Shown piece after piece: positions 25,969 to 60,756 of a stretch of 64,000 nt of DNA. The translations under genes were made by a program, and so were the position numbers. A model generated the notes under the pieces. That model worked only from the letters and a program-made list of their open reading frames with translations. It did not search any database and had not been told where the DNA came from. Origin of the DNA: Thermodesulfobacteriota bacterium (GTDB taxonomy: Bacteria > Desulfobacterota_D > UBA1144 > Nemesobacterales > Mycalebacteriaceae); contig OZ245366.1 of assembly GCA_965226585.1 (NCBI GenBank), positions 1,280,001 to 1,344,000 of the forward strand. Direction: 5' to 3'. Numbering within the stretch: position 1 is the stretch's first letter; the number at the start of each line of letters is the position of its first letter.

Positions 25969-26039
25969 ATTGTAAAAACCGGCGATATTATTTACATAAT
26001 ATAGACCCGTTTATAAAGTGGCGCGGACACAAAGCCGGA

Positions 26040-26249
26040 ATGAAAATGAAAAACAACGGACACTGGAAAATCTTTCTGCCCCTCACTGTCGTGATAGCGG
26101 GCTTTGCGTTTGTGCCCGCGATTGTGGGCGAAGGCGTTACAGAGCCGAACCTTTTCGGAATACCGCGAACGCTTTGGGTAAGCATGGGAATCTCGCTCTG
26201 CATATATGTTGTTCTGATAGCGGCGATGATTATGTCAAAAGAGAGTTGA
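26040..26249 (+). CDS. Small two-TM membrane protein, probable symporter partner
   Basis: MKMKNNGHWK..LFGIPRTLW; ends 3 bp before the symporter gene. Confidence 0.7.
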   Translation: MKMKNNGHWKIFLPLTVVIAGFAFVPAIVGEGVTEPNLFGIPRTLWVSMGISLCIYVVLIAAMIMSKES

Positions 26250-26252
26250 AGG

Positions 26253-44800: not shown

Positions 44801-47800
44801 TGTTGATTGTCGCAGATGTCGCTTTTATGGCGTTGCTGTCTGATATGCCGTTAGTCCAAACTTTTGCCTCGTTGCTTATCATCACGGTTTCCGCCGTGAT
44901 GGTTTCGCTTGTGTTGCCTTCCGTCCACACATTCGCGCCGTTGACTGTTACCGTTACCGCCCTCACCGCGTTGCTTGTGTCGCCGTTTGCCCACACATTC
45001 GCGCCGTTCCATATATTTGCGGTTGTCGCCCTGATTGCATCGCTTGTCGCGCCTTCCGTCCATATATCCGAGCCGTTTGCCGTTACCGTTTCCGCTGACA
45101 CCGCGTTACTCGCGGCTCCGTTTGCCCACACTTTCAAGTCGTGAACGGTTGCCGAGCCGCCGGATAAAGAAGAAGCGTTTATGGTTGAACCGCCCGCGCC
45201 GATTGTCCAAATCTCTCCCATTCCGTCTTCAGAAACGATGGTTACAGTTTCCGAAGTTCCCGCCTCAACCGCCGCTGAGCCATCGCCGTTTGCCCAAACC
45301 TTTCCGCCGCCGCTCACATTGACCGTTGCCGCAATTATCGTGTCGCTTGTGTTGTCTTCCGTCCAAATCTGCGCGCCGTTGACTGTTGCCGTTGCGGTGA
45401 AAATCGCGCGGGCTTGCTGTCCGTTTGCAAACACTTTTAAGTCATGAACCGTTACGCTTGTTGCCGCGTTCACGGTTGAAGCCCCGATACCGCTTGACCA
45501 AATTTCTCCCATCCCGTCTTCAGAAACGATGGTTACAGTTTCCGAAGTTCCGGCGCGAACCGCCGAGGAAGAGGGTCCCGTCTCGCCAACCCAAATTTTT
45601 CCGCCGCCCGAAACGTTGACCGTCTGCGCGGTTACCGCGTTGCTTGTCGCGCCGTTGCTCCAAACCTGCGCGCCGTTGTAGATGTTCACATCTGTCGCGT
45701 CAATGGCTGTGCTTCTTTCTTTGTCAGCCCACACACTCGCGCCGCCGTCAACTGTTGCCGTTGCCGCCGAAACCGTCCGGCTTGCCGCGCCGTTAGACCA
45801 TACTTTCAAACCGTCATTGATATAAGCCGCCGCCGTTGCTTTCACCGTTGAAACGCCGTCAACTGTTGTCCAAACCTCTCCGTCTCCGTCTGCTGATATG
45901 ATGTTGACCGTTCCCGAACCGCCCGCAGAAACCGCCGAACTGTCCGCGCCTTCCGCCCAAACCTTTCCGCCGCCCGATACATTCACCGTGCCCGCAACTA
46001 CCGAGTTGCTTGCCGAGCCGTTTGCCCACACTTTCGCGCCGTTCCAGATGTTTGCGGTTGTCGCGTCAATGGTTCTGCCGCCTTGTCCTTCACTCCATAC
46101 TTGAGTGCCTGTGCCGTTGACTGTCGCGCTTGCCGCCTTAACTGTGTTGCTGTCTGAGCCGTTTGCCCACACTTTCAAGCCGTCATTGATGTAAGCCGCC
46201 GTTGTTGCTTTTACCGTTGAAACGCCGCCAACTGTTGTCCAAATCTCTCCGTCTCCGTCTTCAGAGACGATGTTGACCGTTCCCGAAGTTCCCGCAGAAA
46301 CGGCTGAACTTCTCACGCCGTTTGTCCAAACTTTTCCGTCTTTTGAAATATTTGCCGTTTCCGCGACTATCGCGTTACTGCCCGTGCCGTTAGCCCAAAC
46401 CTTCGCGCCGTTCCAGATGTTCACGGTTGGCGCGACTATGGTGTCGGATGAGCCGCCTTCCGTTGTCCAGACATCCGTGTTGTTGACTGTCGCGCTTGTT
46501 CCCGCCGTAACCGCCCGGCTTGCCGCGCCGTTTGCCCAAACTTTCACGCCGTCATTGATGTAAGCCGCAGTTGCCGCTGTTACTGTTGAAACTCCGGAGA
46601 TTGTCCAAATCTCTCCCGTTCCGTCTTCAGAGATGATATTTGCCGTTCCCGAAGTTCCCGAAGAGACGGCTGAACTTCCCGCGCCGTTTGCCCATACCTT
46701 GCCACCGTTTGAAACGTTCAAAGTTTCAGCGACTACCGTGTTGCTTGTTACGCCGTTAGACCACACTTTCGCGCCGTTCCAGATGTTTGCCGTGCCTGTT
46801 GCGATTATGGTGTCGCTTGTGTCTCCGTTTGACCACACTTCCGTTGCTGAGCCGTTGATTGTTACGGTTGCCGCCGTAACCGCCTGACTTCCCGCGCCGT
46901 TAGACCATACTTTCAAGCCGTGAATGCCTGCCGTTGTTGTTGCCTTTACCGTTGAACTTTCCGAAGCGTTAGACCACACTTCTCCCTTTCCGTCTTCTGA
47001 TACGACCGTAACCCCTCCGCCGGTTTTCGCTGAAATTGCCGAACTTCCGGAAGCGTTAGACCACACTTTCGCGTCATTTGAAAAGTTGACTGTTTCCGCA
47101 ACTATGGAGTTGCTTGTGTTGCCTTCCGTCCAGACTTCAGAGCCGTTGACCACAACAGTTGTTGCTGAAATGGCGTTGGCTGTCGCTCCGGTAGCCCGCA
47201 CTTTTGAACCATTCCACACATTCACCGCGCCAGTTGTTGTTGAGATTGTGGCGGCTCCCGTTTTGTTCGTCCACACATCCGCGCCGCTGACATCAACATC
47301 ACCAGTCGCCAAAATCGCGTAGTTCGAACCGTTGCCGCCAATATCTGCGTCCACAACATTCACCGTTGACGCATTAATTGCCGCAAATCCGCCGTTCGTC
47401 CAGACGGAAAGACCGTCCGCTTCTCCCGCCACTACTGACAGGGTTCCCGTGCCCGTGGTTGACGCTTCAATGGCAATACTTCCGGCTTTATCCGCAAAGA
47501 TAGCCGAACCGCCGTTTCCGCCTATGTTTATGTCTCCGCTTGTGGATGTTGCTATGACGCCGTTTCCACCTTCAGTGGATCCGCCGCCTCTTCCATAAAC
47601 GACTCCGTTCGCGAGAGCGAGGTCAATGTTTCCGCTAACCGTGTTGGCTATGATGCCGTCTTTACCAACTATGCAGGAAACGGCGTTCGCAATTGTTATG
47701 TCTATGTTTCCCGCGCCTCCCGTGTCTGCCGCCAAGCCGTGAGAGTCTCCCACGGATGAGGCGAAGATTGCCGCGCCGTTTATAAGTTCAACTGTTATGT

Positions 47801-48548
47801 CTCCGCCGCCTGTGGATGTGAGTGTCGCGCCTCTTGTGTCTCTAACTGTGTATTCCTTGCCTGTGCCGCTTCTGGCTCCATACAGGTGGATTGCCGAATA
47901 CATCCCCTCAAATGAAAGTTCAATATCTCCGCCTGCTGTGTTTGCTATAAGACCGTTTGTGCCTTGCCTGTCTGAAACGATTATTCCCTGATTGGAGAAG
48001 TCCGCGACCACGTTTCCGCTTGTGGATGTTGCTATAATCCCGTTTCCGCCGGTTCCCCCGATTTTAACTCTTGAGGTGTTGTGAACGCCTATATTCACAT
48101 CGCCCGTTCCGGCTGTGATGGTAGCAGGGTTGTTAGGAGCGTCTGGGTCGGTTTCCCCGATTCTAACTCTTGAGGTGCTGATGGTAACAACGTTTCCGCC
48201 GGTTCCGTTTTTGGCGGTAAAAGAGCCGTCATCGGTTTGGAAGGCAGCGGCAGTCGCGCCGCCGATAACTATTGTATCTCCGCCCGTTTGGGTTGTTGCG
48301 ACATTTGCACCGTAAGAGGTAAGGGTGGCAGACCCTCTGGCGGATTTGACTGTAACAGCGGGAACATCCGTAACCACGGAACGCGCGCCGCCTGAGATGT
48401 TAAGCGCGGCGTCTGTTGCGGAAGTACAGTCAATTGCGGTTGCGGCAACCGGTGTTACATCGCCGCAACTCGTTTGCGCATGGGAGTTTTGCGGCGCAAA
48501 AGCAAATAAAATTGCGAACAGAAAGGTGATGGTTAATTTTCTGTGCAT
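38889..48548 (-). CDS. Giant autotransporter-like adhesin AT1 (3219 aa)
   Basis: Sec signal (..NSHA/QT), long repetitive G/A/S/T/N/V passenger, about 300-aa amphipathic beta-barrel ending NYSF. Confidence 0.88.
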   Translation of the reverse strand: MHRKLTITFLFAILFAFAPQNSHAQTSCGDVTPVAATAIDCTSATDAALNISGGARSVVTDVPAVTVKSARGSATLTSYGANVATTQTGGDTIVIGGATAAAFQTDDGSFTAKNGTGGNVVTISTSRVRIGETDPDAPNNPATITAGTGDVNIGVHNTSRVKIGGTGGNGIIATSTSGNVVADFSNQGIIVSDRQGTNGLIANTAGGDIELSFEGMYSAIHLYGARSGTGKEYTVRDTRGATLTSTGGGDITVELINGAAIFASSVGDSHGLAADTGGAGNIDITIANAVSCIVGKDGIIANTVSGNIDLALANGVVYGRGGGSTEGGNGVIATSTSGDINIGGNGGSAIFADKAGSIAIEASTTGTGTLSVVAGEADGLSVWTNGGFAAINASTVNVVDADIGGNGSNYAILATGDVDVSGADVWTNKTGAATISTTTGAVNVWNGSKVRATGATANAISATTVVVNGSEVWTEGNTSNSIVAETVNFSNDAKVWSNASGSSAISAKTGGGVTVVSEDGKGEVWSNASESSTVKATTTAGIHGLKVWSNGAGSQAVTAATVTINGSATEVWSNGDTSDTIIATGTANIWNGAKVWSNGVTSNTVVAETLNVSNGGKVWANGAGSSAVSSGTSGTANIISEDGTGEIWTISGVSTVTAATAAYINDGVKVWANGAASRAVTAGTSATVNNTDVWTTEGGSSDTIVAPTVNIWNGAKVWANGTGSNAIVAETANISKDGKVWTNGVRSSAVSAGTSGTVNIVSEDGDGEIWTTVGGVSTVKATTAAYINDGLKVWANGSDSNTVKAASATVNGTGTQVWSEGQGGRTIDATTANIWNGAKVWANGSASNSVVAGTVNVSGGGKVWAEGADSSAVSAGGSGTVNIISADGDGEVWTTVDGVSTVKATAAAYINDGLKVWSNGAASRTVSAATATVDGGASVWADKERSTAIDATDVNIYNGAQVWSNGATSNAVTAQTVNVSGGGKIWVGETGPSSSAVRAGTSETVTIVSEDGMGEIWSSGIGASTVNAATSVTVHDLKVFANGQQARAIFTATATVNGAQIWTEDNTSDTIIAATVNVSGGGKVWANGDGSAAVEAGTSETVTIVSEDGMGEIWTIGAGGSTINASSLSGGSATVHDLKVWANGAASNAVSAETVTANGSDIWTEGATSDAIRATTANIWNGANVWANGDTSNAVRAVTVTVNGANVWTEGNTSETITAETVMISNEAKVWTNGISDSNAIKATSATINNSEVWAEGAINTGAVITVATTVDIVGGAKVWTNNSNGVTVLATTATVNGSDVWANGVGGVTIVAETVEVSGGANVWIHSGDGGAAIKAEKRTADTTEITVDVNGASVWANGSVSTAISSYEAGVELLINAVSANIRAGGLGASAISADAFFGNAAINISGSNISAWGSRSRGINVTSYGGANATVNATGANVWTEDTISTAITVTADLGGNAALFVKDSDVWANEISSKAIYADATKLPNSSGTNSVVFVGIDDSTVRTAKRFSTGLEIRASRGISLASAEINGTDITTAGADSTAVIVHSQFRGHANASFTSSNIRTSGRNSTGLSVAIQDGGGVPAIDGWRYLCVVFPNGREVYCTNPGTPAIPGGRTFVDLSVMDISTGGNESNAVYVAALEGGNGIVNAVRVNIWAEGDNSSGVAVQTVEDIDAGREGHAIVNLDKSKVWANGSHSAAINAFSESETGNGLVTVTASDVWTEGHNSVAVNGYTYLYGKTDIEVRGSKVWANGANSAPLFLITEAGGTSFMDVHDSTVWTEGDNSTAFGGETIQVKGGGNKIQANFNGVTILVNGADSAAFTLNAQRGDIGVQLHNSAVILANSTGEFFKLTDSSGTRISVDSTNTSFRMGEDDATVFATTVTSGGAANMIDDTVRTFRMNIRNQNEVSTEGLRGTVFSLDHQTGAAVEINNYFNAKRAWTQGADGNTIVLKSSAGGDVSYDTGVSSKIWANGAGSSAIWSESGGGSLSISAAEGETMEIWSAGDSVNTVRTDSPDIELRNLKVRANGARANALWAETATPAAMFVAIHNSQIGAGRASVAEDVNAAHISSGGDSENIDIEINGSDIWAGGGRSNAVVANAGGGSVAVSINGSNIWANETASSAIFAFSSNTETGDNAIVVKVNSSKIWTDATRDSNAIRARTTAGRAYVEISDSDIFENSTRTSTPARSSAVFMNMLGAGGGNVVVSGSNIRTTGRGGSGIRTKTTTSLTSDSYVSVANGSNVWATGQDGSALLAESHRFMGIEINGSNMWSTGQSRATAVSQAHSGGDRSRSTEWTVTNGSKVWANGARTGAIFMNSRAAQHSNITINDKSQVWTEGDGARSVYGNAILRSQFITVGNQSHVWANGAGSVAIYANSIDGGFNDELQVIVNQSSSVFTTKTGNGIFIETEAFGNIVVHGNSRVFANGAKSNAILIGGRVGVTYTRVSGGSQVYTTANDSHAMAVVDGFYGFGSTISIDSGARVFTNGARSVAVNINSYDRIGVVNVNAADVYTTGADSTTILIEEKDDDPNVGESEAELHMYNGANVSASGMNSVAVSLRSGSYARYQSLLRIFEGALLCGGVIDENRNCIVTPANNVIALQVGDEWDNNDVGLDNWGTIVGKVTLSDVGDTFTNKDTGLLTIIGSFDTGDGDDIFTNEGTFIGNASMGADDDEVYNEDTGTITIITSFDTGSGSDIFQNRGTINGAGSVIHDSSDTVTGLPPSSSPPPSSQSAPAHGAQSTPSEGGGNRFRLSSATPEREPERATINFGEGDDHFINEGTIVLAGAGGFNGLDKITFGANSTLVVSADPEEMTGKPLINLEGTISAEDIEGFRVRVDVPGTHITEYTIFEADDLPDGEERQEVVERLNAEIGERGSVQTDGDGNLFLTAMSLKDASLDIYDSLIQSAYRADRSFATKLSSGCGYGSAASDEIDGDFWTGCVWATSGGRYTRYSSAINYDEDVYTFTGGVSAPFNSILVSVAGGYEISNLDMDVLTDEGRADASGEATRFMGGIFASTIVDRYMVDGRFQYVSTSWESTRTAGDNRYSADTNATVFGGALGAAMPFLSGSFALFPRIEIGASYVTAGAFDETSLTNTPEAIADAFKVKDTSEILVYVSPSFEARSPLSETVNMRIRVGADIHVLNPEADLEATLADGNVPRSGGQDRIMFNYGAGFEYTPYAPLRELSVRIDYDGGMSTSFDTFVQQFRGGVNYSF

Positions 48549-48688: not shown

Positions 48689-48721
48689 CGTCATTCCGTG
48701 CTTGACACGGAATCCGGTATT
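48689..48721. repeat. Single REP arm overlapping the AT2 stop codon
   Basis: CGTCATTCCGTGCTTGACACGGAATCCGGTATT. Confidence 0.9.
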
Positions 48722-51700
48722 AAAACGCTAATCCAACTCTCGCGCTAAACACCTGCGTTAGCGTATCCAGCCCCGGCGTTACTCCGCCGTCATAGTCAAT
48801 CCGCACATTAAAACCCTTATACGGCAACACAAACTCAGCCCCGGCGCCGTAATTAACCATTATCCTCTCAAGCGAACCGGTTACCTTGAACAAATCTCCG
48901 CCGCTTGTCCTCGCGCTCCACTGCGTTTCAGGGTCTGTAATGTGCGCGTCCGCTCCCAAACTCATCCAGATATTTACCGTCTCTCCCGCAGGAACATACG
49001 CCGTTACGGACGGGCTTATAACCAAATATGTCTTCCCCGCCCCGCCAACGGTAAGGGCGGAATCTTCCAAAGCCGTCTCGCGGAAACCGTCAGCGGATAC
49101 CTTTGTAACTCCCGCCTCAACTCTGGGGACAACCATAAACACACCGCCGGGAAATATCGGCATCTCCCCGCCCACAGCCGCAGACCATGTGGCTACATCC
49201 GTTTCCGCCCCGTGCTTCCCGTTATCGCCTCTTATCAGACTTTCCCCCCTTAACGCCGCAGATTCCCATGTCGCTCTGGCAAACTGCGTTCTCACATCCG
49301 TGATAATTCCGCTCCAAAACTCACTCGCCACCGAAATACCCGCCATAAACCTCTCGCCGCCCGCGCTTGTGTCTGCTCCGGCGTCAAAGTCCGATGTCTC
49401 ATATCCCGCCGCAACCGATACGATGGATTTTCCGGCAGGCACGGTAAAACCGCCCGTGAATACGTGGGCATCTTCACTGTATTCGGAAGTGGCGGTGTGC
49501 CGCGTGAATCTGCCGTCCGCCGCCGCCCACAGACAGCCGCCCCGCAGGTCTTGCGTTTCCGTCTCATCGCCGCCGCCGTAGCAACCGCCGCGCAGTTTTT
49601 CTGAAAATGCGTTGTCCGCGTAGTAGGCGGATTGAATCATGGCGTCATAGTTTCTCAGGTAATCGTATGGACGGAGGTTGGAAAGGGTAATGAAGATGTT
49701 GCCGATTTCATCCATCCGGGCAGACGCATTCCGTTCAAGCCCATCGCTTACTATGTTGAAAATTGCCTGTCTTTCATCTTCGCTGTCCACCAGAATTTCT
49801 TCCCTGAATAACAGAAACTCTCCCGAAAGTCTCTCAGGGTTGGCAAATCTTGCGCTGAAACCTTCAATGTCCGCCTCAGCTATCTCGTCTTCAACGTTTA
49901 TGAGCGATCTGCCCACCATCTCGACAGGGTCTGCGGTTATAAGAAGGAGTGAGTTTTCGCCGAAGGTTATTTTCTCCAAACCCGCAAAGCCCTCGCCTCC
50001 GATAACCATTGTGCCGTTGTTTATGAAATAGTCATCGCCGCCGCCAAAGTTTATTGGTATCCCCGTGCCGTTTATTATGCCGTCATTTCTGAAAGTGTCT
50101 TCGCCGGTTCCCGTGTCAAAAGAGCCGGCCATTGTGATAACTCCCGTGTCTTTGTTGGTAATTCTGTCGTGGTAATCGCTCAGTTTCACATCTCCGACTA
50201 TCGTTCCCGCGTTTTCCAGAATGGAGTGGTAGTCTGCGGGGTCGTCATCCGCATTTCCGTCATCCCTTATCCGCACCGCCGCCGCGCCCGCCGCGCCGGT
50301 TATAAGACAGTTGCGTCCCGCGTCTATCACACCTGAGCACACAAGGCCGTCTTCAAAAACTTTCATAATGGTTTTGTAATATGCCGCTCTGCCGCTTCTC
50401 AAAAATACCGCCGTAGAGTTCTGTCCGTCTGCCGATACATTCGCGCCGCCGGATATGTAGAGTTCCATCTTGCCCCCGCCGGAACTCCTTGCTCTTTCCG
50501 CAAGCATTATGGCCGCGCTGTCCACTCCGGTTGCATAGACACCCGCGCCGCCTGATATGTTCGCAATGGCGTCTCTGTTATATGCGTTGATATTTATAGC
50601 CGCGCTTCTCGCGCCGTTAGAGAAAACACGCGAACCGCCGTCAACATAAACGTATGACCTCGCGCCGGCAAAACCGTCTGTTATTGCTATTGCGTTGCTG
50701 TCTGCTCCGGTTGTGTACACTTGCGACCTTCCGGACACTCTCATGTGGGAATCCCCGATTCCGAAGCCAATAAATATCGCGTTGCTTTTCGCGCCGTTTG
50801 TCCAAACTCTGGAACCGTCGTGAACCACTATGTTGGCGAATGCCTCCGTATCTACGGCTATGGCGTTGCTCATTTCGTCTGTGGTGAAAACCCTTGACGA
50901 GCCGTTGACAATCACCCGCGCGAAATCGTCAATTCCGCCGTCCGCGCTGTTTGCGTAGATTGCCGTGCTTCCCGCGCCGTTTGCCCACACACGGGAATGA
51001 CTGTGGACTTCTATGTATTGATTTCTTTCAGATGCGTTTCCGTAGATTGAGTATGCCGAGTCTCCCTCCGTCCACACTTCCGACCCGCCGGAAATGATAA
51101 TGCCCGACCCCGGCGCTCTTTGAGAGTTCATGTATATCGCGCCCGTTCCCGCGCCGTTTGCCCAAACCTTTGAGCCGTTTGCAACCACCCACTCCGCTCG
51201 CGCCCCCGTCCAGCTTCCCGCGCTGTGATGCGAGTTTGACTCAGCCGCCGCTCTGCCTTCTCCAACAGACCACACATTTGAGCCGCTGATTGTAATTCCT
51301 ATAAATCTGTGCGAGTTCACGAAAATCGCGCTTCCTTCCGTGCCGTTTGCCCACACATTTGAGCCGTTGGCAATCGTAAGAGTTGTGTCCTGTCTTATGG
51401 CTCCCGCGCTCTCCGCCCTTATGGTTTTGCTGTTAATTCCTCCCGACCAGATGTTTGAACCGCTTGCGACAAAACCAATTCCTCCCTGTCCGGTTGAGTT
51501 CATCATCACCGCCGCAGAACGCGCCTGAAAAGAGAGTCTGGAATCTTCAAAGACGGTGGAGTCTCGTATTTCCACATAGATTTTGCCGGCGCCCGTTGTT
51601 TGCGCCCTGATGACGTTTGAGTCTCGTCCCGCGTTTTGCCCTGACCAAACCCTTGACGATTGGACCTTCACAACAACCGCGTTGGTTCCGGAGTCTGAGT

Positions 51701-52544
51701 TTGCGGAGGTGGCGAAGATTGCCGAACTTGCAGACTGGTTTGCCCATATCTCAGAGCCTTTGACATCAACCGCAACACTGCCGGTTCCGGGGTTGGCGGC
51801 AATCGCGCTTGAGTTAGTTCCGTCCGTCCATATTTTTGAGCCGTTTATTTCAATGTTTATATTTTCGCTGTCGCCCGCGCTGGTGATATGAACGGTGTTC
51901 AACCATCTGCTGAATACCGGCTTGCCCGCGCCCAGTTGAGAGTTGTGAATGGCAACGGATATTGGCGAGGGTGTTGCCGTTTCCACCCACAGCGCGCCCG
52001 CTCTGTTGCCGCTTGCCCGCGCTTTCAGGTTGCGGAGTTCAACATCCGGGCTGTCTGTTCTGATAGTGTTGACGCCCGGTTGAGAAGTCCATATTTCCAT
52101 TGTTTCGCCATCCGCCGCGCTGACAGAGAGCGAGCCACCGCCGCTTTCAGACCATATAGCCGAACTGCCCGCGCCGTTAGCCCATATTTTTGATGAGATT
52201 CCTGCGCGGTAGGAAACGCCGCCGCCCGCGCTTTTCAAGACAACCGTGTTGCTTTGCGCGCCGTTAGTCCAGATATCTGTGGCGTTAATGGTTAGAAGCA
52301 GGTTAGCGGTTTGATTTTCGTTGGAAGCGTTAACGGCGGTTGACTGGCTTCCGTTTGCCCACACTTTCAAGTTGGCGAGTGTGGTTGTTGCCGTTGCGTT
52401 GAATGTTGAGACGCTGTTATCCACCGTCCACAATTCTCCGTCTTTTGAGAAAGCCGCAACATCTATTGACTGTGCGTAAGAGGGAGGCGGTGAGAAAGCA
52501 AACAGGATTCCGAGTATGGAAAGCAGGGTTAGGGTTTTACGCAT
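48720..52544 (-). CDS. Autotransporter-like adhesin AT2 (1274 aa)
   Basis: Signal peptide (..PSYA/QS), VWANG repeats, barrel ending GLAF. Confidence 0.88.
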   Translation of the reverse strand: MRKTLTLLSILGILFAFSPPPSYAQSIDVAAFSKDGELWTVDNSVSTFNATATTTLANLKVWANGSQSTAVNASNENQTANLLLTINATDIWTNGAQSNTVVLKSAGGGVSYRAGISSKIWANGAGSSAIWSESGGGSLSVSAADGETMEIWTSQPGVNTIRTDSPDVELRNLKARASGNRAGALWVETATPSPISVAIHNSQLGAGKPVFSRWLNTVHITSAGDSENINIEINGSKIWTDGTNSSAIAANPGTGSVAVDVKGSEIWANQSASSAIFATSANSDSGTNAVVVKVQSSRVWSGQNAGRDSNVIRAQTTGAGKIYVEIRDSTVFEDSRLSFQARSAAVMMNSTGQGGIGFVASGSNIWSGGINSKTIRAESAGAIRQDTTLTIANGSNVWANGTEGSAIFVNSHRFIGITISGSNVWSVGEGRAAAESNSHHSAGSWTGARAEWVVANGSKVWANGAGTGAIYMNSQRAPGSGIIISGGSEVWTEGDSAYSIYGNASERNQYIEVHSHSRVWANGAGSTAIYANSADGGIDDFARVIVNGSSRVFTTDEMSNAIAVDTEAFANIVVHDGSRVWTNGAKSNAIFIGFGIGDSHMRVSGRSQVYTTGADSNAIAITDGFAGARSYVYVDGGSRVFSNGARSAAININAYNRDAIANISGGAGVYATGVDSAAIMLAERARSSGGGKMELYISGGANVSADGQNSTAVFLRSGRAAYYKTIMKVFEDGLVCSGVIDAGRNCLITGAAGAAAVRIRDDGNADDDPADYHSILENAGTIVGDVKLSDYHDRITNKDTGVITMAGSFDTGTGEDTFRNDGIINGTGIPINFGGGDDYFINNGTMVIGGEGFAGLEKITFGENSLLLITADPVEMVGRSLINVEDEIAEADIEGFSARFANPERLSGEFLLFREEILVDSEDERQAIFNIVSDGLERNASARMDEIGNIFITLSNLRPYDYLRNYDAMIQSAYYADNAFSEKLRGGCYGGGDETETQDLRGGCLWAAADGRFTRHTATSEYSEDAHVFTGGFTVPAGKSIVSVAAGYETSDFDAGADTSAGGERFMAGISVASEFWSGIITDVRTQFARATWESAALRGESLIRGDNGKHGAETDVATWSAAVGGEMPIFPGGVFMVVPRVEAGVTKVSADGFRETALEDSALTVGGAGKTYLVISPSVTAYVPAGETVNIWMSLGADAHITDPETQWSARTSGGDLFKVTGSLERIMVNYGAGAEFVLPYKGFNVRIDYDGGVTPGLDTLTQVFSARVGLAF

Positions 52545-53263
52545 AACGGCACGGTGAGGTGTCTTGATTTGGTGAAGTATATTTGCGTAGAGGGTAGATG
52601 TCCACTAAGACGGGGCAGGTGTCCAATAAAGGTGTCCAATAAAACGGAATGCCTTCCCCGTCATTCCGTTGCCTTTCCCGTCATTCCTGCGAAAGCAGGA
52701 ATCCAGTATTGGTTAACCAGTTGAATACTGGATTCCGTGTCAAGCACGGAATGACGGGATGGGGAAAAACACGGAATGACACACTTTCCCGTCATTCCTG
52801 CGGAAGCAGGAATCCAGTATTGATTAACCAGTTGAATACTGGATTCCGTGTCAAGCACGGAATGACGGGATGGGGAAAAAAGCACGGAATGACACACTTT
52901 CCCGTCATTCCTGCGGAAGCAGGAATCCAGTATTGGTTAACCAGTTGAATACTGGATTCCGTGTCAAGCACGGAATGACGGGATGGGGAAAAAAGCACGG
53001 AATGACACACTTTCCCGTCATTCCTGCGGAAGCAGGAATCCAGTATTGGTTAACCAGTTGAATACTGGATTCCGTGTCAGGCACGGAATGACGGGAAGGG
53101 GAAAAAGCGCGGAATGACACACTTTCCCGTCATTCCTGCGAAAGCAGGAATCCAGTATTGGTTAACCAGTTGAATACTGGATTCCGTGTCAGGCACGGAA
53201 TGACGGAAAGGGGAAAAGGCACGGAATGACGGGAGTGTAGAAGCGTCATTCCGTTGCCTCCTC

Positions 53264-53648
53264 CGTCATTCCTGCGAAAGCAGGAATCCAGTATTATTTA
53301 ACCCGATGGACAAAAATCCCGCAGTCTACATAATGGCGAGCAAGCGAAACGGAACACTTTACACAGGTGTAACCAGCAACCTGCCCGCCCGCGCTTGGGA
53401 GCATAAGAACAGCGCGACAGAAGGTTTTACAGACAAATACAGTGTCCACCTGCTTGTGTACTTTGAAGTGCACGAGGATATGAATTCAGCAATTGAACGC
53501 GAGAAGCAGATAAAGCAATGGAAACGCCAATGGAAATTGGAACTTATAGAGAAAGACAACCCTGAATGGAAAGATTTGTATGAGGATATTGTTTGAGTAG
53601 GGGTTTCGCCAGTTGAATACTGGATTCCGTGTCAGGCACGGAATGACG
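53264..53648 (+). mobile_element. Candidate 385-bp element: REP arm - GIY-YIG gene - inverted REP arm
   Basis: The gene lies between arm A (53264-53295) and arm B (53616-53648); mobility is inferred, not shown. Confidence 0.6.
53306..53596 (+). CDS. Stand-alone GIY-YIG nuclease (YhbQ/UPF0213-like)
   Basis: AVYIMASKRNGTLYTGVT, R..EH, YFE, AIEREKQIK..W.R.WK. Confidence 0.93.
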   Translation: MDKNPAVYIMASKRNGTLYTGVTSNLPARAWEHKNSATEGFTDKYSVHLLVYFEVHEDMNSAIEREKQIKQWKRQWKLELIEKDNPEWKDLYEDIV

Positions 53649-54342
53649 GGAAGGGGAAAAGGCACGGAATGACACACTTTCCCGTCATTCCTGCGGAAGC
53701 AGGAATCCAGTATTGGTTAACCAGTTGAATACTGGATTCCGTGTCAGGCACGGAATGACGGGATGGGGAAAAAGGCACGGAATGACGGGAGTGGAGAAGC
53801 GTCATTCCGTTGCCTCCTCCGTCATTCCTGCGGAAGCAGGAATCCAGTATTGGTTAGCCAGCTGAATACTGGATTCCGTGTCAGGCACGGAATGACGGGA
53901 AGGGGAAAAGGCACGGAATGACACTCTTTCCCGTCATTCCTGCGGAAGCAGGAATCCAGTATTAGTTAGCCAGTTGAATACTGGATTCCGTGTCAGGCAC
54001 GGAATGACGGGAAGGGGAAGAAGGCACGGAATGACACTCTTTCCCGTCATTCCTGCGAAAGCAGGAATCCAGTATTAGTTAACCAGTTGAATACTGGATT
54101 CCGTGTCAGGCACGGAATGACGGGAAGGAGAAAAGGCACGGAATGACACACTTCCCCGTCATTCCTGCGGAAGCAGGAATCCAGTATTGGTTAGCCAGTT
54201 GAATACTGGATTCCGTGTCAGGCACGGAATGACGGAAAGGGGAAAAAGGCACGGAATGACGGAAAAAAAACAATCAACGGAATGACGGAATGGTGGAAAG
54301 CACGGAATGACGGGAAGGGGAAAAGGCACGGAATTACAGGTC

Positions 54343-57300
54343 TTAAAACCTGTAATTAACTCCGCCTCTGAACTGTTGCACAAAAGTATCAACCGAAGAA
54401 CTAACCCCGCCGCCATATTCAACACTCACATTAAACTTCTCATAAGGGCTGTATTCAAAACCCGCCCCGTAGGTGAACATCACCCTGTCCATTGTGCCGT
54501 CAACGGGAACATTATCCCTCTCAAGCCTTCCTTCAATCTCAGATTCAGGGTTAAGCACTTGTATATCCGCCCCTGTTCTTATCCACATATTTATTGTCTC
54601 ATTGAGAGGACTCCGCGCCTCTATTGACGGACTCACGTACACAAGCAACTCGCTTATCTCATCTACCCCAAAGGCATCCATCGCCGCATCCGCCGCACCT
54701 GTTCCTGTTGTAAGCGAAGTCTCATTAAACTTATCCGCCGTTATTTGAGATGCTCCAACCGCCACACGGGGGAAGAAAGCGAACTCTCCCATTAAGAACG
54801 GTCTTGCCGCGCCTATCTCGCCGCCGAATACCGTTGCGTCCACATCCGCCGAGTAACTGTTACCCGCCGTTCTGGTCGCTTCCCAACTCGTTGACCCGTA
54901 ACGCAGGTTGCCGTCAAGCACAAACTCATCAACCAACGCCTCGGCAAATATACCGCCCATGAACCTTGTTGCATCTCCGCTTGCTTTGCCCAGTCCTCTC
55001 GTGTCCGCCGCAGTCTCTGTTTCTGAACTCGCGTCTATGTCCGATATCTCATATCCGCCCGCGATAGAAACAAGCACTCCGCTAAATGGCGCGGAAAAAC
55101 CGCCGGTGAAGGAATAAACATCCTCGTCATATTGTATCGCCGATGTGTGCCTTGTGTATCTTCCGCCCGATGTTGCCCATACGCATCCGCCAGTCCAAAA
55201 CTCTCCTTCTATCTCATCACTCGCCGCTCCGCTGATTCCGCATCCTCTTGCCAACTTGTCAGCAAAGTTTCTGTCTGAACGGTAGGCGGACTGTATCAAT
55301 GCGTCATATACATCCAAACTTGTGTCTTTGTGCGATGTTGCTCTTAAAAACAGGTTGCCGTTTTCGTCTGTCTCAACAGTTATTCTTTCGCCGATTTCCG
55401 CGCTCAGGCGGTCTGCAACTTCCTGCCTTTCTTCGCCTTCCGGCAGGGCTTCCGCTTCAAAAATTGTGTATTCCGTTACATGCGCGCCGGGAACTTCAAC
55501 TTCAACATTGAAACCCTCAACATCTTCGGCGGTTATCGTCCCCTCAAGGTCTATCAGCGGGTCGCCCGCAACGCTTTCAGGGTCTGCCGTGATAACAAGG
55601 GTTGAGTTTGCGCCGAAAGATATCTTCTCAAGCCCGTTAATCGTTTCCCCGCCACTTATTACCAAAGTTCCGTTGACTGTCAGAGTGTCTCCATCGCTAT
55701 CTCCAAAGTTCAGAGAACCGCCGCCCGATTTCTCCGGCTCCGTTTCCACAAACTCAGCGGTTCCCGCAGAACCGAGACGGAAACGCCCGTCTCCGCCGGA
55801 TGATGCGGAACGCCTGCTGCTGGTGGTAATATTCGTGCCTTCATACGTTCCGCCTGCGGCTATGGTAACACTTGCGCCGCCCACAACAGCAGATGTGTCT
55901 ATGTCGCCATACACCTTGCCGGTGGCGTTAATCGTAACTATTCTGTTATCGTAACCAAGGGTTCCTGACCACCCCTTCGCGCCCGCAGACATTTTTATCG
56001 CCTTGCCGCCCGTTACGTTCACGGTTCCGTCCACCCAAACAAAAGCCCCGCCGTTTGCCGTGCTCGCGGAAATCCCGATTCCCGAAGTCGCACCCGCCGC
56101 CCCTTTCGCGTACACCGCCGAACCTTCATCAATAATTACATTTGCATATCCGGTATCAGCCCTCGCTATTATCGCCTTCCCGCCGGTTCCGCTCGCGTTC
56201 ACAAGCGTTCTGCCTCCTAATCTTACTGTCGCCTCTATGTCATGCACACTTACGGCAGATGCCCCTGTTTGGGGGTTCGTCCTCGGCGCGCCGGTTGTTG
56301 TGGCGTTCAGCCCTTCAGCCTGTCCGCCCGGGAGGCTGATAACATGTGTAACATCCGAACTTGACGAATGATAAGAGTTGACAGTCGCGTCCGCCCCGGC
56401 CGATTCTGCCACGGCATACTTGCTTTGGGTTCCGTTTGCGTAACGCACTGCGGGAGTTCCTCCGCTTGGTGTGCGGAAAATAATATCCACCCGGGCATTT
56501 GCGCTGCTTGAGGATGCGTGGGCGGCGGTACTGCGGTTGTCGCCGTTCACGAATAAAATGCCGCTCGTCTCAATACTTGCGTTTCCGCCTGCGCTAGCCC
56601 GTATCGCCGTGCTTCCAATGCCCTCCGTATAGACAGCCGTGCTGTGACTTGCCTGTCTGATTAAAACATTTCCCGACCCGCTCACTCCGTACAGGGCGTG
56701 GCTTTGCTTCTGCACCGCCCACACTTTTGCCTGTCCTGAAACGGTAATGGCAACATCTCCGCTTCCGCTTGATACGCCACTAAACGCGGATGACCTGTCA
56801 GGGATGACTGACAGCCGAGAATCTCCGCTCATTGAAAAAGATATATCTCCGTTTCTCGTCTCCGCGACAATTGCGTCTGCAAGGAAATGACCGCGCATAG
56901 CTACCTGAGAGGTGCCGCCAAGCGCAATATTTATGTCTCCGTCCGCGCTGTTCGCGTGTATGGCTCTGGCGGCGGTTCCGTATTGCGGGAATCCGGCTAT
57001 CACCTGCGCGCCGCCCTGCAAACTGACGGTTGTGGAGCCGTTGCGGGTTTGCAGTCTGACGGTATTGGTATTCGACTGCCCTGAGGAAACATACGCCGAA
57101 TCCGGATTCTCTAACGGCGCGTCTGCCGCCGCCGCCGCGCCGTTGACATAAAGCCCTATGGCACCGTCCACCGATGTCGCTTTTATGGTGTCGCCACTCC
57201 CGCCGGTAACGACTCGCGACTTGTCGGAAATGATTATTTTTGTTTCTCCGTTACCCACTTGCGACACGACACCGCTTCCTACCGCCTCTATACGGGAATC

Positions 57301-60300
57301 GCCAACCAGAGTAATTTCCGTTCTTTCTGTTGAGCCGCTTGCGTCAACACTCAGCACGGAGGCTCCGCTTGTTTCTGTGGCGATGCTGGAGTTTGCAAGA
57401 TAGACCCTAACTCCAAGTTCAGTTCCCTGTGTTCCCGCTACGTATGAAGAGCTTACGTGAACCGCGCTTCCCGCTCCGGCGACCGCCGTCAGCGGAGAAT
57501 TGACTATATCAAGCGTTGCCGTGCCTTTGTCAGCCCGAACCTGCGCGGCGCGTCCGCCGGCGGATTTAATAGTTGAGCTGTTGACGATGACATGCACGCC
57601 TCCAACCACTCTTGTTCCCACAGCCGAAATTCCGCTTGACCCCGCAACCGCCATGACGGTTGAATCATTCACCGCCAAAACTACCGCCGGCAAGTCCGCT
57701 GTTCCGCCGGGGCCCGCTCCGGCGTCAACGGCGTCAACGGCATTTGCTCCCGCGCCGTTTAACGCGATAAACGAGTCGATTACATTCACTGCTCCAACAA
57801 TTCCTCCAACCGCCGGGTTGCCCGCGTGCGCCGACCATACCTTGGACCCGCTTATGTGCACAGTCGCCCCTTTGACGGCTGTGCCCGTGCCTGATGTGCC
57901 CGTTGCCCAAACCTCCGAGCCGTTAGTTATGCTCACGCCGCCAGCCGTGGTGATGCCTTCTCTTACCGCCCACACCTTTGAGCCGTTAACGGTTACATCT
58001 CCGCCGGTCTGGATTTTGATGGCATTGCCGGCCGCGCCGTTTGCGCCAACTACCGCGCCGTTGACCACATTCACCGCGCTACCCGTTTGAATCGTGATTG
58101 ACTCGGCGCCTTCGCTCCAAACGCTGACGCCGTTTAAGTCAAAACCCTCACTGAAAGAAGTGATGACAAAGGTTCCCGCGCCGTTAGACCAAACTTTTGA
58201 GCCGTCTGTTATGGTCAGCGATGTCCTTCCCGTTTCGGGAATTACAGGGTTCACGGGGCTGTCTCCCGTTGACCACACATTTGAGCCGCTTATGCTGATG
58301 TCTGCTCCTGTTATCGCGCTTTTTGCCGCTCCATGCGTCCAAACGTTTGACCCGTTAAACACTTTCACCGTTCCGGTTGCCACAATTCCGCCGCCGCCGG
58401 TCGCGCTGTTTGCCCCCGCAGTCGCGCCGCTCAGAAGTACGTCTTGCGCCGTAATCGCGTTGCTGTCCGCTCCTTCAGCCCACACAGACGCGCCGTTGAG
58501 TGTTACGGTTCCGGTTGCGGTTGTGGCAAGGGCGTCTGTTGTCGCGCCGTTAGCCCACAGCTTTATGCCGTGAATTGTTACTTCCGTTGTTATTCCCGCA
58601 GTTGAAGCACTGTCTGCCGTTGTCCAAACTTCTCCCGCTCCGTCTCTTGATTCAATGGTGAGCGTTCCCGAAGTCGCATTAATCGCAGAACTGCTCGCGC
58701 CTTCCGCCCAAACCTTTGAGCCGCCGTAAATTTCGAATAATGAGGCAACCACAACCGCGTTGCTGTTATCGCCTTCCGTCCAAATTTGCGAACCGCTTCT
58801 GATTGTCGCGTTTTCGGTTACGGCAAGGGCGTTTGTTGTCGCGCCGTTTGCCCACACTTTTGCTTGCCGAATAAATGCTCTGTCCGCCCTCAGGGTTAAA
58901 GCCCCATCACCGGTTGTCCAAATCTCTCCCGTTCCGGCAATGGCAAGCCCTCCGCCGCTTCCCGCGGAAACCGCCCGACTTCCCGCGCCGTTTGCCCAGA
59001 CCTTGCCGCCGGCGGTAATTATTAGTGAGTTGGCGATAATCGTGTTGGCGTTATTGCCTTCCGTCCAAACTTCCGAGGAGTACACTCTCGCGGAATCCGA
59101 AACTACCGCATCAGACCTGAAGCCGCCCGTCCACACCTTGACGCTGTTCTGAATGCCCACAGTTGTTGCCTTTATCGCGTTACTGATTGGGCCGTTTGCC
59201 CACACATTCGCGCCGTTCCAAATATTGACGGTTGGCGCAAGGATGGTGTTGGATTGGCCGCCTATTGTCCACACATTCGCGCCAATGACTGTTACGGGTG
59301 CTGATGTTGCCTTAACTGCGTTGCTTCTCGAGCCGTTTGCCCACACATTTGCGCCGTTCCAAATATTGACAAGTGCCGCAACGATAGTTTCGGAACCTTG
59401 GCCGCCTATTGTCCACACATTCGCGCCATTGACTGTTACGACAGCTCCCGCCGTAACCGCCTGACTTCTCGAGCCGTTTGCCCAAACTTTCAGGTCATTG
59501 ATGACCGCCGTTCTTACCGCTTTCACTGCTACAGTCGAGGATCCTTTAACCCATATCTCTCCCGTTCCGTCTTCAGATTCTATGGTAACCGAGTCCGAAC
59601 TTCCCGAAACAACGGCGATTCCGCTGGATGAGCTTGCCCAAACCTTTCCACCGCTTGAAACATTCACCGTGTCCGAGACTATCGTGTTGGAGTTAAAGCG
59701 GTTTCCCGTCCAAACTTCCGAGTTATCGACCAGCACGGCTGTAGCCAAAATCGCGTCGCTTCTGGCTCCGTCACTCCAAACCTTCGCGCCGTTCCAAAGG
59801 CTCACAGTTTTTGCCTGTATCGTACCGGCGTCTGATTTGTTAGACCATATTTGCGCCGATGAGACCTTTAAGGCGTCCGTTGATATGACTGCCAGTTTGC
59901 CGTCGCTCGTCCATATATCAAGTTCTGATATTAGCGCGCCGTCCGGTGTGGCGCTGATAATGTTGACGGCGTAACTGTTAAAGCTGAGTGAGTAGATTTC
60001 GCCCGCTGAGGCGTTGCCGGAGATGGTAACGCTTCCGCTGTTGGTTTGAACCGCCAGAGCCGCCCCCCCGCCTGCGGAGTATCTTTCCAGCGCGATTTTT
60101 GAATTGTTGCCCACCCAAACGGTGGTGGATGTGTTCACGCCTTTGAATTCAACGGTATTCACGCCATTGCCGCCTGACACGCTAATGTCGCCTGAGGTAA
60201 CAAGCATATTGTCTGTTATTACCGCGGCTATATTTCCCCGTTCTATATTTACGCTAATCACCGTGCTTTCGTCTGAGTTTATAACGTCCGGTTCTCCGTC

Positions 60301-60756
60301 TCTTGAGCGGATATCCAAATCAAGGTTTGTAATGGTACTGGTGTTTGTAATGATACCGGTGTTTGTGTTTGGGTCTCTTACGTAGGTAATTGGGTCTCTT
60401 GCGTAGGTAATGTTGAAATTAATTCCGTCTCCTCCGATTAGCGGAACGGGTTTTGTGCCTTCAATGATGAAGGGGCGGATAGTCTTTGTGGTGGATGAAA
60501 TAACCCCGCGTGTGCGACTTTTAAATATGACTTTTACAGGGGTAGTCACCTCCGGAGACGTGAAGGTTGTCGTTGAGGAATCTGTCGCGGGAAAAATTGT
60601 GGAAATTATCACCACGGAAGGATCGTTCGTGGTTACGTAACTTGTGTTGGAATAAAATGTATTGGAATAAGATACTGTCTGGGAATAAGATACGCCCGGC
60701 ACGATGAGGGTGCATAAAAGAGCAAAAAGAACGAGTGCGAACGAGCGTTTACGCAT
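54343..60756 (-). CDS. Autotransporter-like adhesin AT3 (2137 aa)
   Basis: Signal peptide (..VSYS/QT), VWANG repeats, barrel ending NYRF. Confidence 0.88.
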   Translation of the reverse strand: MRKRSFALVLFALLCTLIVPGVSYSQTVSYSNTFYSNTSYVTTNDPSVVIISTIFPATDSSTTTFTSPEVTTPVKVIFKSRTRGVISSTTKTIRPFIIEGTKPVPLIGGDGINFNITYARDPITYVRDPNTNTGIITNTSTITNLDLDIRSRDGEPDVINSDESTVISVNIERGNIAAVITDNMLVTSGDISVSGGNGVNTVEFKGVNTSTTVWVGNNSKIALERYSAGGGAALAVQTNSGSVTISGNASAGEIYSLSFNSYAVNIISATPDGALISELDIWTSDGKLAVISTDALKVSSAQIWSNKSDAGTIQAKTVSLWNGAKVWSDGARSDAILATAVLVDNSEVWTGNRFNSNTIVSDTVNVSSGGKVWASSSSGIAVVSGSSDSVTIESEDGTGEIWVKGSSTVAVKAVRTAVINDLKVWANGSRSQAVTAGAVVTVNGANVWTIGGQGSETIVAALVNIWNGANVWANGSRSNAVKATSAPVTVIGANVWTIGGQSNTILAPTVNIWNGANVWANGPISNAIKATTVGIQNSVKVWTGGFRSDAVVSDSARVYSSEVWTEGNNANTIIANSLIITAGGKVWANGAGSRAVSAGSGGGLAIAGTGEIWTTGDGALTLRADRAFIRQAKVWANGATTNALAVTENATIRSGSQIWTEGDNSNAVVVASLFEIYGGSKVWAEGASSSAINATSGTLTIESRDGAGEVWTTADSASTAGITTEVTIHGIKLWANGATTDALATTATGTVTLNGASVWAEGADSNAITAQDVLLSGATAGANSATGGGGIVATGTVKVFNGSNVWTHGAAKSAITGADISISGSNVWSTGDSPVNPVIPETGRTSLTITDGSKVWSNGAGTFVITSFSEGFDLNGVSVWSEGAESITIQTGSAVNVVNGAVVGANGAAGNAIKIQTGGDVTVNGSKVWAVREGITTAGGVSITNGSEVWATGTSGTGTAVKGATVHISGSKVWSAHAGNPAVGGIVGAVNVIDSFIALNGAGANAVDAVDAGAGPGGTADLPAVVLAVNDSTVMAVAGSSGISAVGTRVVGGVHVIVNSSTIKSAGGRAAQVRADKGTATLDIVNSPLTAVAGAGSAVHVSSSYVAGTQGTELGVRVYLANSSIATETSGASVLSVDASGSTERTEITLVGDSRIEAVGSGVVSQVGNGETKIIISDKSRVVTGGSGDTIKATSVDGAIGLYVNGAAAAADAPLENPDSAYVSSGQSNTNTVRLQTRNGSTTVSLQGGAQVIAGFPQYGTAARAIHANSADGDINIALGGTSQVAMRGHFLADAIVAETRNGDISFSMSGDSRLSVIPDRSSAFSGVSSGSGDVAITVSGQAKVWAVQKQSHALYGVSGSGNVLIRQASHSTAVYTEGIGSTAIRASAGGNASIETSGILFVNGDNRSTAAHASSSSANARVDIIFRTPSGGTPAVRYANGTQSKYAVAESAGADATVNSYHSSSSDVTHVISLPGGQAEGLNATTTGAPRTNPQTGASAVSVHDIEATVRLGGRTLVNASGTGGKAIIARADTGYANVIIDEGSAVYAKGAAGATSGIGISASTANGGAFVWVDGTVNVTGGKAIKMSAGAKGWSGTLGYDNRIVTINATGKVYGDIDTSAVVGGASVTIAAGGTYEGTNITTSSRRSASSGGDGRFRLGSAGTAEFVETEPEKSGGGSLNFGDSDGDTLTVNGTLVISGGETINGLEKISFGANSTLVITADPESVAGDPLIDLEGTITAEDVEGFNVEVEVPGAHVTEYTIFEAEALPEGEERQEVADRLSAEIGERITVETDENGNLFLRATSHKDTSLDVYDALIQSAYRSDRNFADKLARGCGISGAASDEIEGEFWTGGCVWATSGGRYTRHTSAIQYDEDVYSFTGGFSAPFSGVLVSIAGGYEISDIDASSETETAADTRGLGKASGDATRFMGGIFAEALVDEFVLDGNLRYGSTSWEATRTAGNSYSADVDATVFGGEIGAARPFLMGEFAFFPRVAVGASQITADKFNETSLTTGTGAADAAMDAFGVDEISELLVYVSPSIEARSPLNETINMWIRTGADIQVLNPESEIEGRLERDNVPVDGTMDRVMFTYGAGFEYSPYEKFNVSVEYGGGVSSSVDTFVQQFRGGVNYRF

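What the first reader, a model, noticed from the sequence alone, without database searches (positions are those of the whole stretch)
53264..53648. GIY-YIG nuclease gene inside a REP doublet: candidate nuclease-driven REP/MITE system
Seen: the empty unit is arm A (CGTC-ATTCC-TGCG(G/A)AAGCA-GGAAT-CCAGTATT), a 13-nt spacer (GGTTAACCAGTTG), and inverted arm B. In unit 6 of 11 the spacer is replaced by ATTTAACCCG + a 291-bp intact GIY-YIG ORF + GTAGGGGTTTCGCCAGTTG. The empty spacer reads like a join of the two gene flanks (..TTAACC / CCAGTTG). Only 10 nt separate arm A from the ATG. Established: REP/REPIN families are normally linked to HUH-type RAYT transposases, and GIY-YIG domains include homing and retroelement endonucleases. 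No RAYT, transposase or integrase is visible in this window. Inference: the 385-bp unit is the autonomous element and the 78-bp doublets are non-autonomous deletion derivatives spread by nuclease cutting plus host repair. I cannot confirm from here that this is undescribed.
Basis: partly seen in the sequence, partly recalled or inferred. Interest (0 to 1): 0.9.

Follow-up and report, generated by a model that had tools for sequence, protein, structure and literature searches.

The report
Ssn nuclease inside its hairpin repeat
A tiny DNA-cutting enzyme gene sits between two inverted hairpins of a repeat that has over a hundred gene-less copies in this genome; it is a new example of the Ssn nuclease and hairpin pairing published in 2025, and the gene-less copies are likely deletion products of the gene-bearing unit, though whether the enzyme spreads them is untested.

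Summary
Unit 6 of an 11-unit array of 78-bp CGTC-tagged REP doublets carries an intact 96-aa GIY-YIG gene. A second, 99.5% identical filled unit lies elsewhere in the genome, beside about 126 empty doublets.

The pairing is already described. The protein is 56.5% identical to the Neisseria SsnA orthologue and keeps its catalytic Tyr/Tyr/Glu. It belongs to the Ssn family (Chenal et al. 2025), which cuts single-stranded DNA just 5' of such hairpins; that paper already proposes the arm-gene-arm unit as a mobile or domesticated element. Inward-facing tagged hairpins flank 28 of 48 homologous loci (controls 0 of 40 and 0 of 42).

What this genome adds: 78 of 128 empty spacers equal a join of the gene's flanks over their last 11 bases, so filled and empty units share one ancestor. 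The only Y1 transposase has no arms nearby. Thirteen autotransporter genes carry an in-frame doublet at a mosaic breakpoint.

Autonomous mobility is not shown: both filled copies follow paralogous genes, and three congeners have arms with no ssn found. This scan noted the pairing before (41 findings matched my search words). Verdict: new member of a known kind.

The parts
52679..54234 (+). Tandem array of 11 inverted CGTC-tagged REP doublets (ten empty 78-bp units, one filled 385-bp unit), separated by linkers that contain partial arm copies
53264..53295 (+). Arm A: CGTC tag, 8-bp stem with 4-nt loop, CCAGTATT extension (NTS / CGTC-1-like; one compensatory pair differs from the Neisseria NTS)
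   Evidence: NTS definition
53293..53298 (+). Possible -10 hexamer (5 of 6 to consensus) 7 nt before the ATG, suggesting a leaderless transcript; inferred only
   Evidence: sequence; 18 of 63 homologous loci show a -10-like hexamer at this distance against 23 of 252 control positions; not reported by the two-hexamer promoter scan
53306..53596 (+). Ssn-family single-domain GIY-YIG nuclease gene, 96 aa; Y8, Y19 and E66 align with Y6, Y17 and E64 of SsnA
53597..53615 (+). 19-nt trailer whose last 7-8 bases are the right-hand part of the empty spacer
53616..53648 (-). Arm B: CGTC tag, 8-bp stem with 5-nt loop (CGTC-2-like), facing the gene
48720..52544 (-). Autotransporter gene left of the array (1274 aa); context
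   Evidence: PF03797 hit at G000:1328789-1329532
54343..60756 (-). Autotransporter-like gene (2137 aa) whose 3' end abuts the array; a paralogue abuts the second filled array

Best explanation
The 385-bp unit is an Ssn-family nuclease gene between two inward-facing CGTC hairpins that it likely recognises, and the genome's 78-bp doublets are likely gene-less deletion products of such a unit that spread by host recombination and repair, probably helped by the enzyme's cuts. Shown here: the anatomy, family membership, shared ancestry of filled and empty units, and a second filled copy. Taken from published homologues: the enzyme binds the hairpin only as single-stranded DNA and cuts a few bases 5' of the CGTC tag. 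Inferred: because the tags point outward, cuts would fall just outside each end of a doublet, one on each strand, whenever the DNA is single-stranded (replication, recombination, incoming DNA). Repair of such breaks from another copy would give half-arm duplications, tandem arrays and gene conversion. The 307-bp loss of the gene would have occurred across a 2-bp microhomology. The second filled copy most likely came from recombination between paralogous arrays, not from transposition.
For: Protein: 56.5% identity over 92 aa, E 5e-41, to the 94-aa N. gonorrhoeae orthologue, which has Y6/Y17/E64 as described for SsnA. Y8, Y19, G21, R29, H33 and E66 are kept in 118-120 of 120 homologues. Flanks: an inward tagged hairpin lies within 150 nt in 28 of 48 GTDB loci (both sides 18), against control windows 0 of 40 and 0 of 42; in 17 of 28 loci from the same order (controls 0 of 28 and 1 of 27). 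Both arms keep the tag G and the C after the stem that SsnA needs. Join test: 78 of 128 spacers are exact over the last 11 bases and 27 more have one mismatch; both common spacer variants are obtainable as joins. Partial tag-plus-left-stem copies lie on the 5' side of 131 of 279 arms, and right-half copies on the 3' side of 0 of 279. The congener G001 has 110-bp tandem repeats of arm plus ssn 5' end, each restarting about 8 nt before the tag. Among 40 relatives, arms occur in 10 of 16 with an ssn match and 5 of 24 without (kin are not independent). No rival mobiliser was found: one Y1_Tnp gene with no arms in 3.2 kb, present also in a congener with zero arms; no IS110, rve or DDE_Tnp_1 match.
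Against: No activity was tested for this protein. The published SRM pattern does not match these arms: 7 hits in the genome against 3-9 in three Markov controls. No empty spacer is a full-length exact join, and the direction (loss versus capture of the gene) is not settled. In three other ssn-bearing genomes with doublets (G043-G045) the spacers are diverse and by eye do not match the flanks of the ssn copy I had; G041 had 2 pattern matches and G042 none, so the join pattern is not general. G001 has intact ssn but no dispersed arms, while G002, G004 and G005 have 12-30 arms with no ssn found. Half-arm repeats could come from polymerase slippage at hairpins with no nuclease; many are copies within arrays, and the 3' control lies inside the conserved doublet. 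20 of 48 homologous loci had no tagged hairpin by my rule.
Confidence: 0.6

Rival explanations
1. Autonomous element: the 385-bp unit copies itself and the empty doublets to new sites through its own nuclease, as RAYT is thought to do for REPINs.
For: Two near-identical filled copies lie 124 kb apart, with different sequence immediately left of the tag. There are 278 arms in 65 clusters against at most 30 in 40 relatives. Homologous cassettes sit tightly between unrelated genes, for example between sufB and sufC. One empty/filled paralogue pair suggests the insert carries about 4-5 extra bases outside each tag, near the SsnA cut distance (one diverged pair only). No known transposase with these arms was found.
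Against: GIY-YIG enzymes hydrolyse DNA and have no known strand-transfer step (established knowledge, recalled). Both filled copies follow paralogous genes and share a right-hand flank of about 50 nt and the downstream gene family. No obvious target duplication was seen by eye at 35 doublets listed as isolated. G001 has ssn but no spread.
Confidence: 0.15
2. Passive partner: the ssn cassette arrived horizontally and recombined into a resident doublet family. The enzyme acts only as a single-strand restriction or recombination modulator, as SsnA does on transforming DNA, and the arrays grow by slippage and gene conversion alone.
For: SsnA's one shown cellular role is lowering integration of NTS-bearing DNA. 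Congeners hold arms with no ssn found, and a G002 doublet has the same CCAGTATT extension on one side. The closest protein relatives found (77-80%) are closer than the congener's copy (68%). No empty spacer keeps the filled unit's second spacer base (0 of 128).
Against: It needs both gene flanks to match the empty spacer in register; two common spacer variants and the rarer extra-C variants fit joins of the filled flanks. The two-sided 8-bp extension was not found in 5 of 5 congeners, so the family looks specific to the lineage that has this ssn.
Confidence: 0.2
3. The genome's Y1 (RAYT-like) transposase, or another unrecognised enzyme, mobilises the doublets and ssn is cargo.
For: A 274-aa Y1_Tnp gene exists at G000:1393395. 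An earlier scan note describes an ssn cassette carried inside a larger mini-transposon in another genome (e1-9921070, not checked by me).
Against: No arm-like hairpin lies in the loci around that gene here or in four congeners. It is single-copy in 4 of 5 congeners, including G003 with zero arms.
Confidence: 0.05

Closest known systems
Ssn nucleases (cd10448, GIY-YIG_unchar_3; SsnA = NMV_0044/NMB0047) with NTS/SRM hairpins; Chenal et al. 2025, PMC11893778
   Same: Single-domain GIY-YIG of about 95 aa, same catalytic positions, 56.5% identical to the Neisseria orthologue; gene flanked by CGTC-tagged hairpins; hundreds of hairpins clustered near surface-protein genes; the paper already raises the mobile or domesticated element hypothesis.
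   Different: The arms carry a compensatory stem change and escape the published SRM pattern. The gene occupies the exact spacer position of the genome's dominant doublet. There are two filled copies, and 13 autotransporter genes carry an in-frame doublet. I saw no filled-versus-empty analysis in the parts of the paper I read.
CGTC-tagged REPs, families CGTC-1 and CGTC-2 (Di Nocera et al. 2013, PMC3733652); includes Neisseria dRS3 and Rickettsia RPE-6
   Same: CGTC tag, 8-bp stem, 4- or 5-nt loop, CCA tail, inverted dimers, clusters, and copies inside genes.
   Different: That paper concluded CGTC REPs lack a dedicated transposase and has no mention of GIY-YIG in its main text; here the dimer encloses a nuclease gene.
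REPIN-RAYT systems (HUH/Y1 transposase with GTAG REPs)
   Same: An enzyme gene bracketed by the same palindromes that populate the genome as inverted doublets and mosaic arrays; a single-stranded hairpin substrate.
   Different: The enzyme here is a hydrolytic GIY-YIG nuclease, not an HUH transposase with a covalent tyrosine intermediate (recalled); the tag is CGTC; the genome's Y1 gene is unlinked to the arms.

Membership tests
Ssn nuclease family | Similarity to SsnA at E < 1e-10 over at least 75% of its length | tested here: met
   56.5% over 92 of 94 aa, E 5e-41. Measured against the N. gonorrhoeae orthologue as a stand-in; the N. meningitidis sequence was not held.
Ssn nuclease family | Single GIY-YIG domain, under 150 aa | tested here: met
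   96 aa, only PF01541
Ssn nuclease family | Catalytic residues Y6, Y17, E64 of SsnA | tested here: met
   Y8, Y19 and E66 align without internal gaps; conserved in 118-120 of 120 homologues
Ssn nuclease family | CDD cd10448 assignment | not testable with these tools
   No CDD library; NCBIfam gave no family
Ssn nuclease family | NTS-like oriented hairpins on both sides of the gene, with tag GTC and the C after the stem | tested here: met
   Arm A differs from the NTS consensus at one compensatory pair; both arms keep the tag and the C
SRM motif as published | Exact match to the degenerate SRM search pattern | tested here: not met
   No match at either arm; 7 matches genome-wide against 3-9 in controls. 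The arms are a variant outside the pattern.
Ssn nuclease family | Sequence-specific cleavage of single-stranded DNA 5' of the hairpin | not testable with these tools
   Shown for four homologues in PMC11893778
CGTC-tagged REP | CGTC/TGTC tag, 8-9-bp stem, 4-5-nt loop, CCA tail, high copy number, dimers | tested here: met
   Of 126 doublets, 114 start with CGTC and 11 with TGTC; stems and loops; family description
REPIN-RAYT | HUH/Y1 transposase gene flanked by the same REPs | tested here: not met
   One Y1_Tnp gene, with no arms in its 3.2-kb locus
Autonomous transposable element / MITE pair | Independent insertions of the coding unit at unrelated sites with defined ends or target duplications | tested here: inconclusive
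   Two copies, both in arrays 3' of paralogous genes; no obvious duplication by eye at isolated doublets

The most novel reading that the evidence does not exclude
The arm-ssn-arm cassette is the progenitor and active driver of this genome's CGTC doublets. Doublets translated in frame at the passenger/translocator junction of 13 autotransporter genes act as Ssn-cut recombination hotspots that shuffle surface-protein passengers. That would be a domesticated GIY-YIG and REP system for surface variation, and the missing mobiliser of CGTC REPs.
Probability: 0.15. Interest if true: 0.75.

Novelty: new member of a known kind. Interest (0 to 1): 0.27.

Why it matters
How CGTC-type REPs multiply has been open since 2013 (PMC3733652), and the 2025 Ssn paper left the mobility idea as a hypothesis. 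This genome gives a clean test case: one young doublet family, a filled unit that differs from the empty ones by a 307-bp segment, and no rival transposase found. It also offers a natural Ssn/hairpin pair with changed stems, useful for specificity studies. The pairing itself is already published, so interest is modest.

Tried and rejected
Paper searches: searches found nothing relevant; one search found the Ssn paper; two searches found no follow-up on Ssn mobility (one preprint only uses SsnA loci as a benchmark). The library lacks most subscription journals.

NCBIfam and PDB sequence searches gave nothing. Phage records gave only distant partial matches. The paper's two locus primers did not match the Neisseria locus, so orthology rests on length, residues and flanking NTS.

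The published SRM pattern under-called the flanks (19 of 48 loci) and was replaced by a tagged-hairpin rule of my own, written after viewing the flanks.

Generality of 'empty = join of gene flanks': examined by eye in 5 other ssn-bearing genomes and not seen. The two-sided extension was not found in 5 congeners.

Sequencing runs: no RNA holder was listed. Contigs of X4 (same species, 14 differences in 1901 bp), X5 and X6 cover the arms but not the ORF. That is an uncovered part and no proof of absence, and the joints that skip the gene are explained by empty doublets elsewhere. X1 may be the source of the assembly and is not independent. A site-specific filled/empty comparison across the array was not possible with contigs.

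Searches failed with script errors and were rerun. Two rows were mis-anchored and were corrected. One search stopped after printing its results. No structure prediction or complex job was run.

Full report
Observation. The window holds a tandem array of 11 inverted hairpin doublets at 52679-54234, between two autotransporter-type genes. Ten units are 78 bp. Unit 6 (53264-53648) is 385 bp and carries a 96-aa ORF with one GIY-YIG domain. The hairpin pattern occurs 31 times in the window against 0.33 expected. An empty doublet folds far better than shuffles as single-stranded DNA (z -7.7).

The genome. G000 (1.48 Mb, one contig) has 278 arms in 65 clusters and 124-128 empty doublets, depending on the pattern. 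A second filled unit, 99.5% identical and encoding the same protein, lies at G000:1209332-1209716. The only other GIY-YIG match is in a 578-aa frame. One Y1_Tnp gene exists outside the window; it has no arms in 3.2 kb and is single-copy in 4 of 5 congeners, including one with no arms. Searches for IS110, rve and DDE_Tnp_1 found nothing; other transposase families and integrases were not searched.

Homologues. The protein has thousands of relatives (7999 of 7999 candidates scored). In 48 GTDB loci from many phyla, an inward-facing tagged hairpin lies within 150 nt upstream in 24, downstream in 22, on both sides in 18 and on either side in 28. Control windows about 1.1 kb away gave 0 of 40 and 0 of 42. 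The four loci under 45% identity had none. In 28 loci from the same order, 17 had one. The rule was written after viewing the flanks, and by eye it misses some longer-looped hairpins. Among 40 relatives, arms occur in 10 of 16 with an ssn match and 5 of 24 without; these genomes are kin and partly incomplete.

Identity. Chenal et al. 2025 (PMC11893778) define the Ssn family: single-domain cd10448 GIY-YIG proteins whose genes are flanked by NTS/SRM hairpins (one side in 71% of homologues, both sides in 42%). I read the abstract, introduction, results, discussion and methods parts 1-6 of 11, supplement file 12, part 1 of 2 of file 6, and keyword hits in the other files; figures were not visible. 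SsnA binds the hairpin only as single-stranded DNA, cuts a few bases 5' of the tag (a 20-nt product from an oligo whose tag starts at base 25), and lowers integration of NTS-bearing transforming DNA. The discussion compares NTS-ssnA-NTS with IS200/IS605 and REP systems and suggests domestication and repeat expansion. The window protein is 56.5% identical to the 94-aa N. gonorrhoeae orthologue, with Y8/Y19/E66 on Y6/Y17/E64. The arms fit CGTC-1 and CGTC-2 REPs of Di Nocera et al. 2013 (PMC3733652; abstract and 12 passages read). They miss the published SRM pattern because of a compensatory stem change.

Filled versus empty. Ignoring two variable positions, 78 of 128 empty spacers equal a join of the gene's left and right flanks and 27 more differ by one base. 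Random flank pairs come within one base in 7 of 20,000 trials. None is exact over its whole length. The units therefore share an ancestor and differ by 307 bp across a 2-bp microhomology. Deletion is the likelier direction, because arm-gene-arm with short spacers recurs across phyla and several spacer variants fit different joins. Capture of the gene by a resident doublet is not excluded. The pattern was not evident in five other genomes.

Mechanism. Shown: anatomy, membership, shared ancestry, duplication. Inferred from homologues: cutting just outside each tag on single-stranded DNA. Consistent traces: partial tag-plus-stem copies on the 5' side of 131 of 279 arms, and 110-bp tandem repeats in G001 that restart about 8 nt before the tag. 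Slippage at hairpins could give the same traces. Against autonomy: both filled arrays follow paralogous genes and share their right flank, G001 has ssn with no dispersed arms, and three congeners have arms with no ssn found. I favour nuclease-assisted spread by host repair (0.6) over a passive partner (0.2), an autonomous element (0.15) or another enzyme (0.05).

Beyond the finding. Fourteen of 124 doublets lie inside long open frames, in 13 of 30 autotransporter-like ORFs (picked by a C-terminal motif; 16 PF03797 matches), all in the linker about 480-535 aa before the C terminus. Among these 13 genes, the pattern of pairwise identity changes most across the doublet: Spearman 0.41, the lowest of 22 junctions (others 0.56-0.91), with 4 switching pairs against 0-2 elsewhere. 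This fits a crossover hotspot. However, the two windows are 130-280 nt further apart than the others, the site is a domain boundary, and shared homology alone would favour crossovers there.

Verdict. Real, and a clean new member of a published system; the driver role remains an open, testable hypothesis already voiced in print. Earlier notes of this scan reached the same family in other genomes and at the second copy in this one; these are AI notes, not independent evidence. The claim that no follow-up is in print rests only.

Noticed in passing
G000:C1, 13 ORFs, e.g. 24223-27444 (-), 445149-447524 (-), 771654-777407 (+), 1189475-1192993 (-), 1350123-1354130 (-): Doublets are read in frame, always in one orientation, in the linker of 13 of 30 autotransporter-like ORFs, with variable numbers of half-arm repeats on each side; mosaic switching peaks at the doublet.
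   Followed up: partly
G000:C1 688628-688811 and 1259678-1259754: Two in-gene doublets have a 1-nt longer spacer that shifts the frame, and the frame stays open through the adjacent duplicated or altered repeat sequence.
   Followed up: no
L054 1437-3282 (G001:C1 1388700-1390545): Two ssn copies 1.27 kb apart with four 110-bp tandem repeats of arm plus the ssn 5' end between them; all 13 arms of that genome lie at this locus.
   Followed up: partly
window 53293-53306: No Shine-Dalgarno site; a -10-like hexamer lies 7 nt before the ATG, and its last T is not kept in any of 128 empty spacers. A similar hexamer occurs in 18 of 63 homologous loci against 23 of 252 control positions.
   Followed up: partly
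L001 1420-2244 (G000:C1 about 1393314-1394138): Single-copy 274-aa Y1_Tnp (RAYT-like) gene with no CGTC arms nearby; a match also occurs once in 4 of 5 congeners, which suggests a domesticated gene.
   Followed up: partly
window 52773-54165, minus strand: Seven inter-unit linkers form terminator-like stem-loops with T runs in the direction of autotransporter transcription (7 found, 2.2 expected).
   Followed up: no
L050 and L051, around 1501: More distant GIY-YIG genes (38-41% identity) sit between tRNA-like repeats rather than CGTC hairpins (seen by eye).
   Followed up: no
window 38889-48548, 48720-52544, 54343-60756: Very large paralogous autotransporter genes (3219, 1274 and 2137 aa) with repetitive passengers, part of a family of about 30 in a 1.48-Mb genome.
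   Followed up: partly
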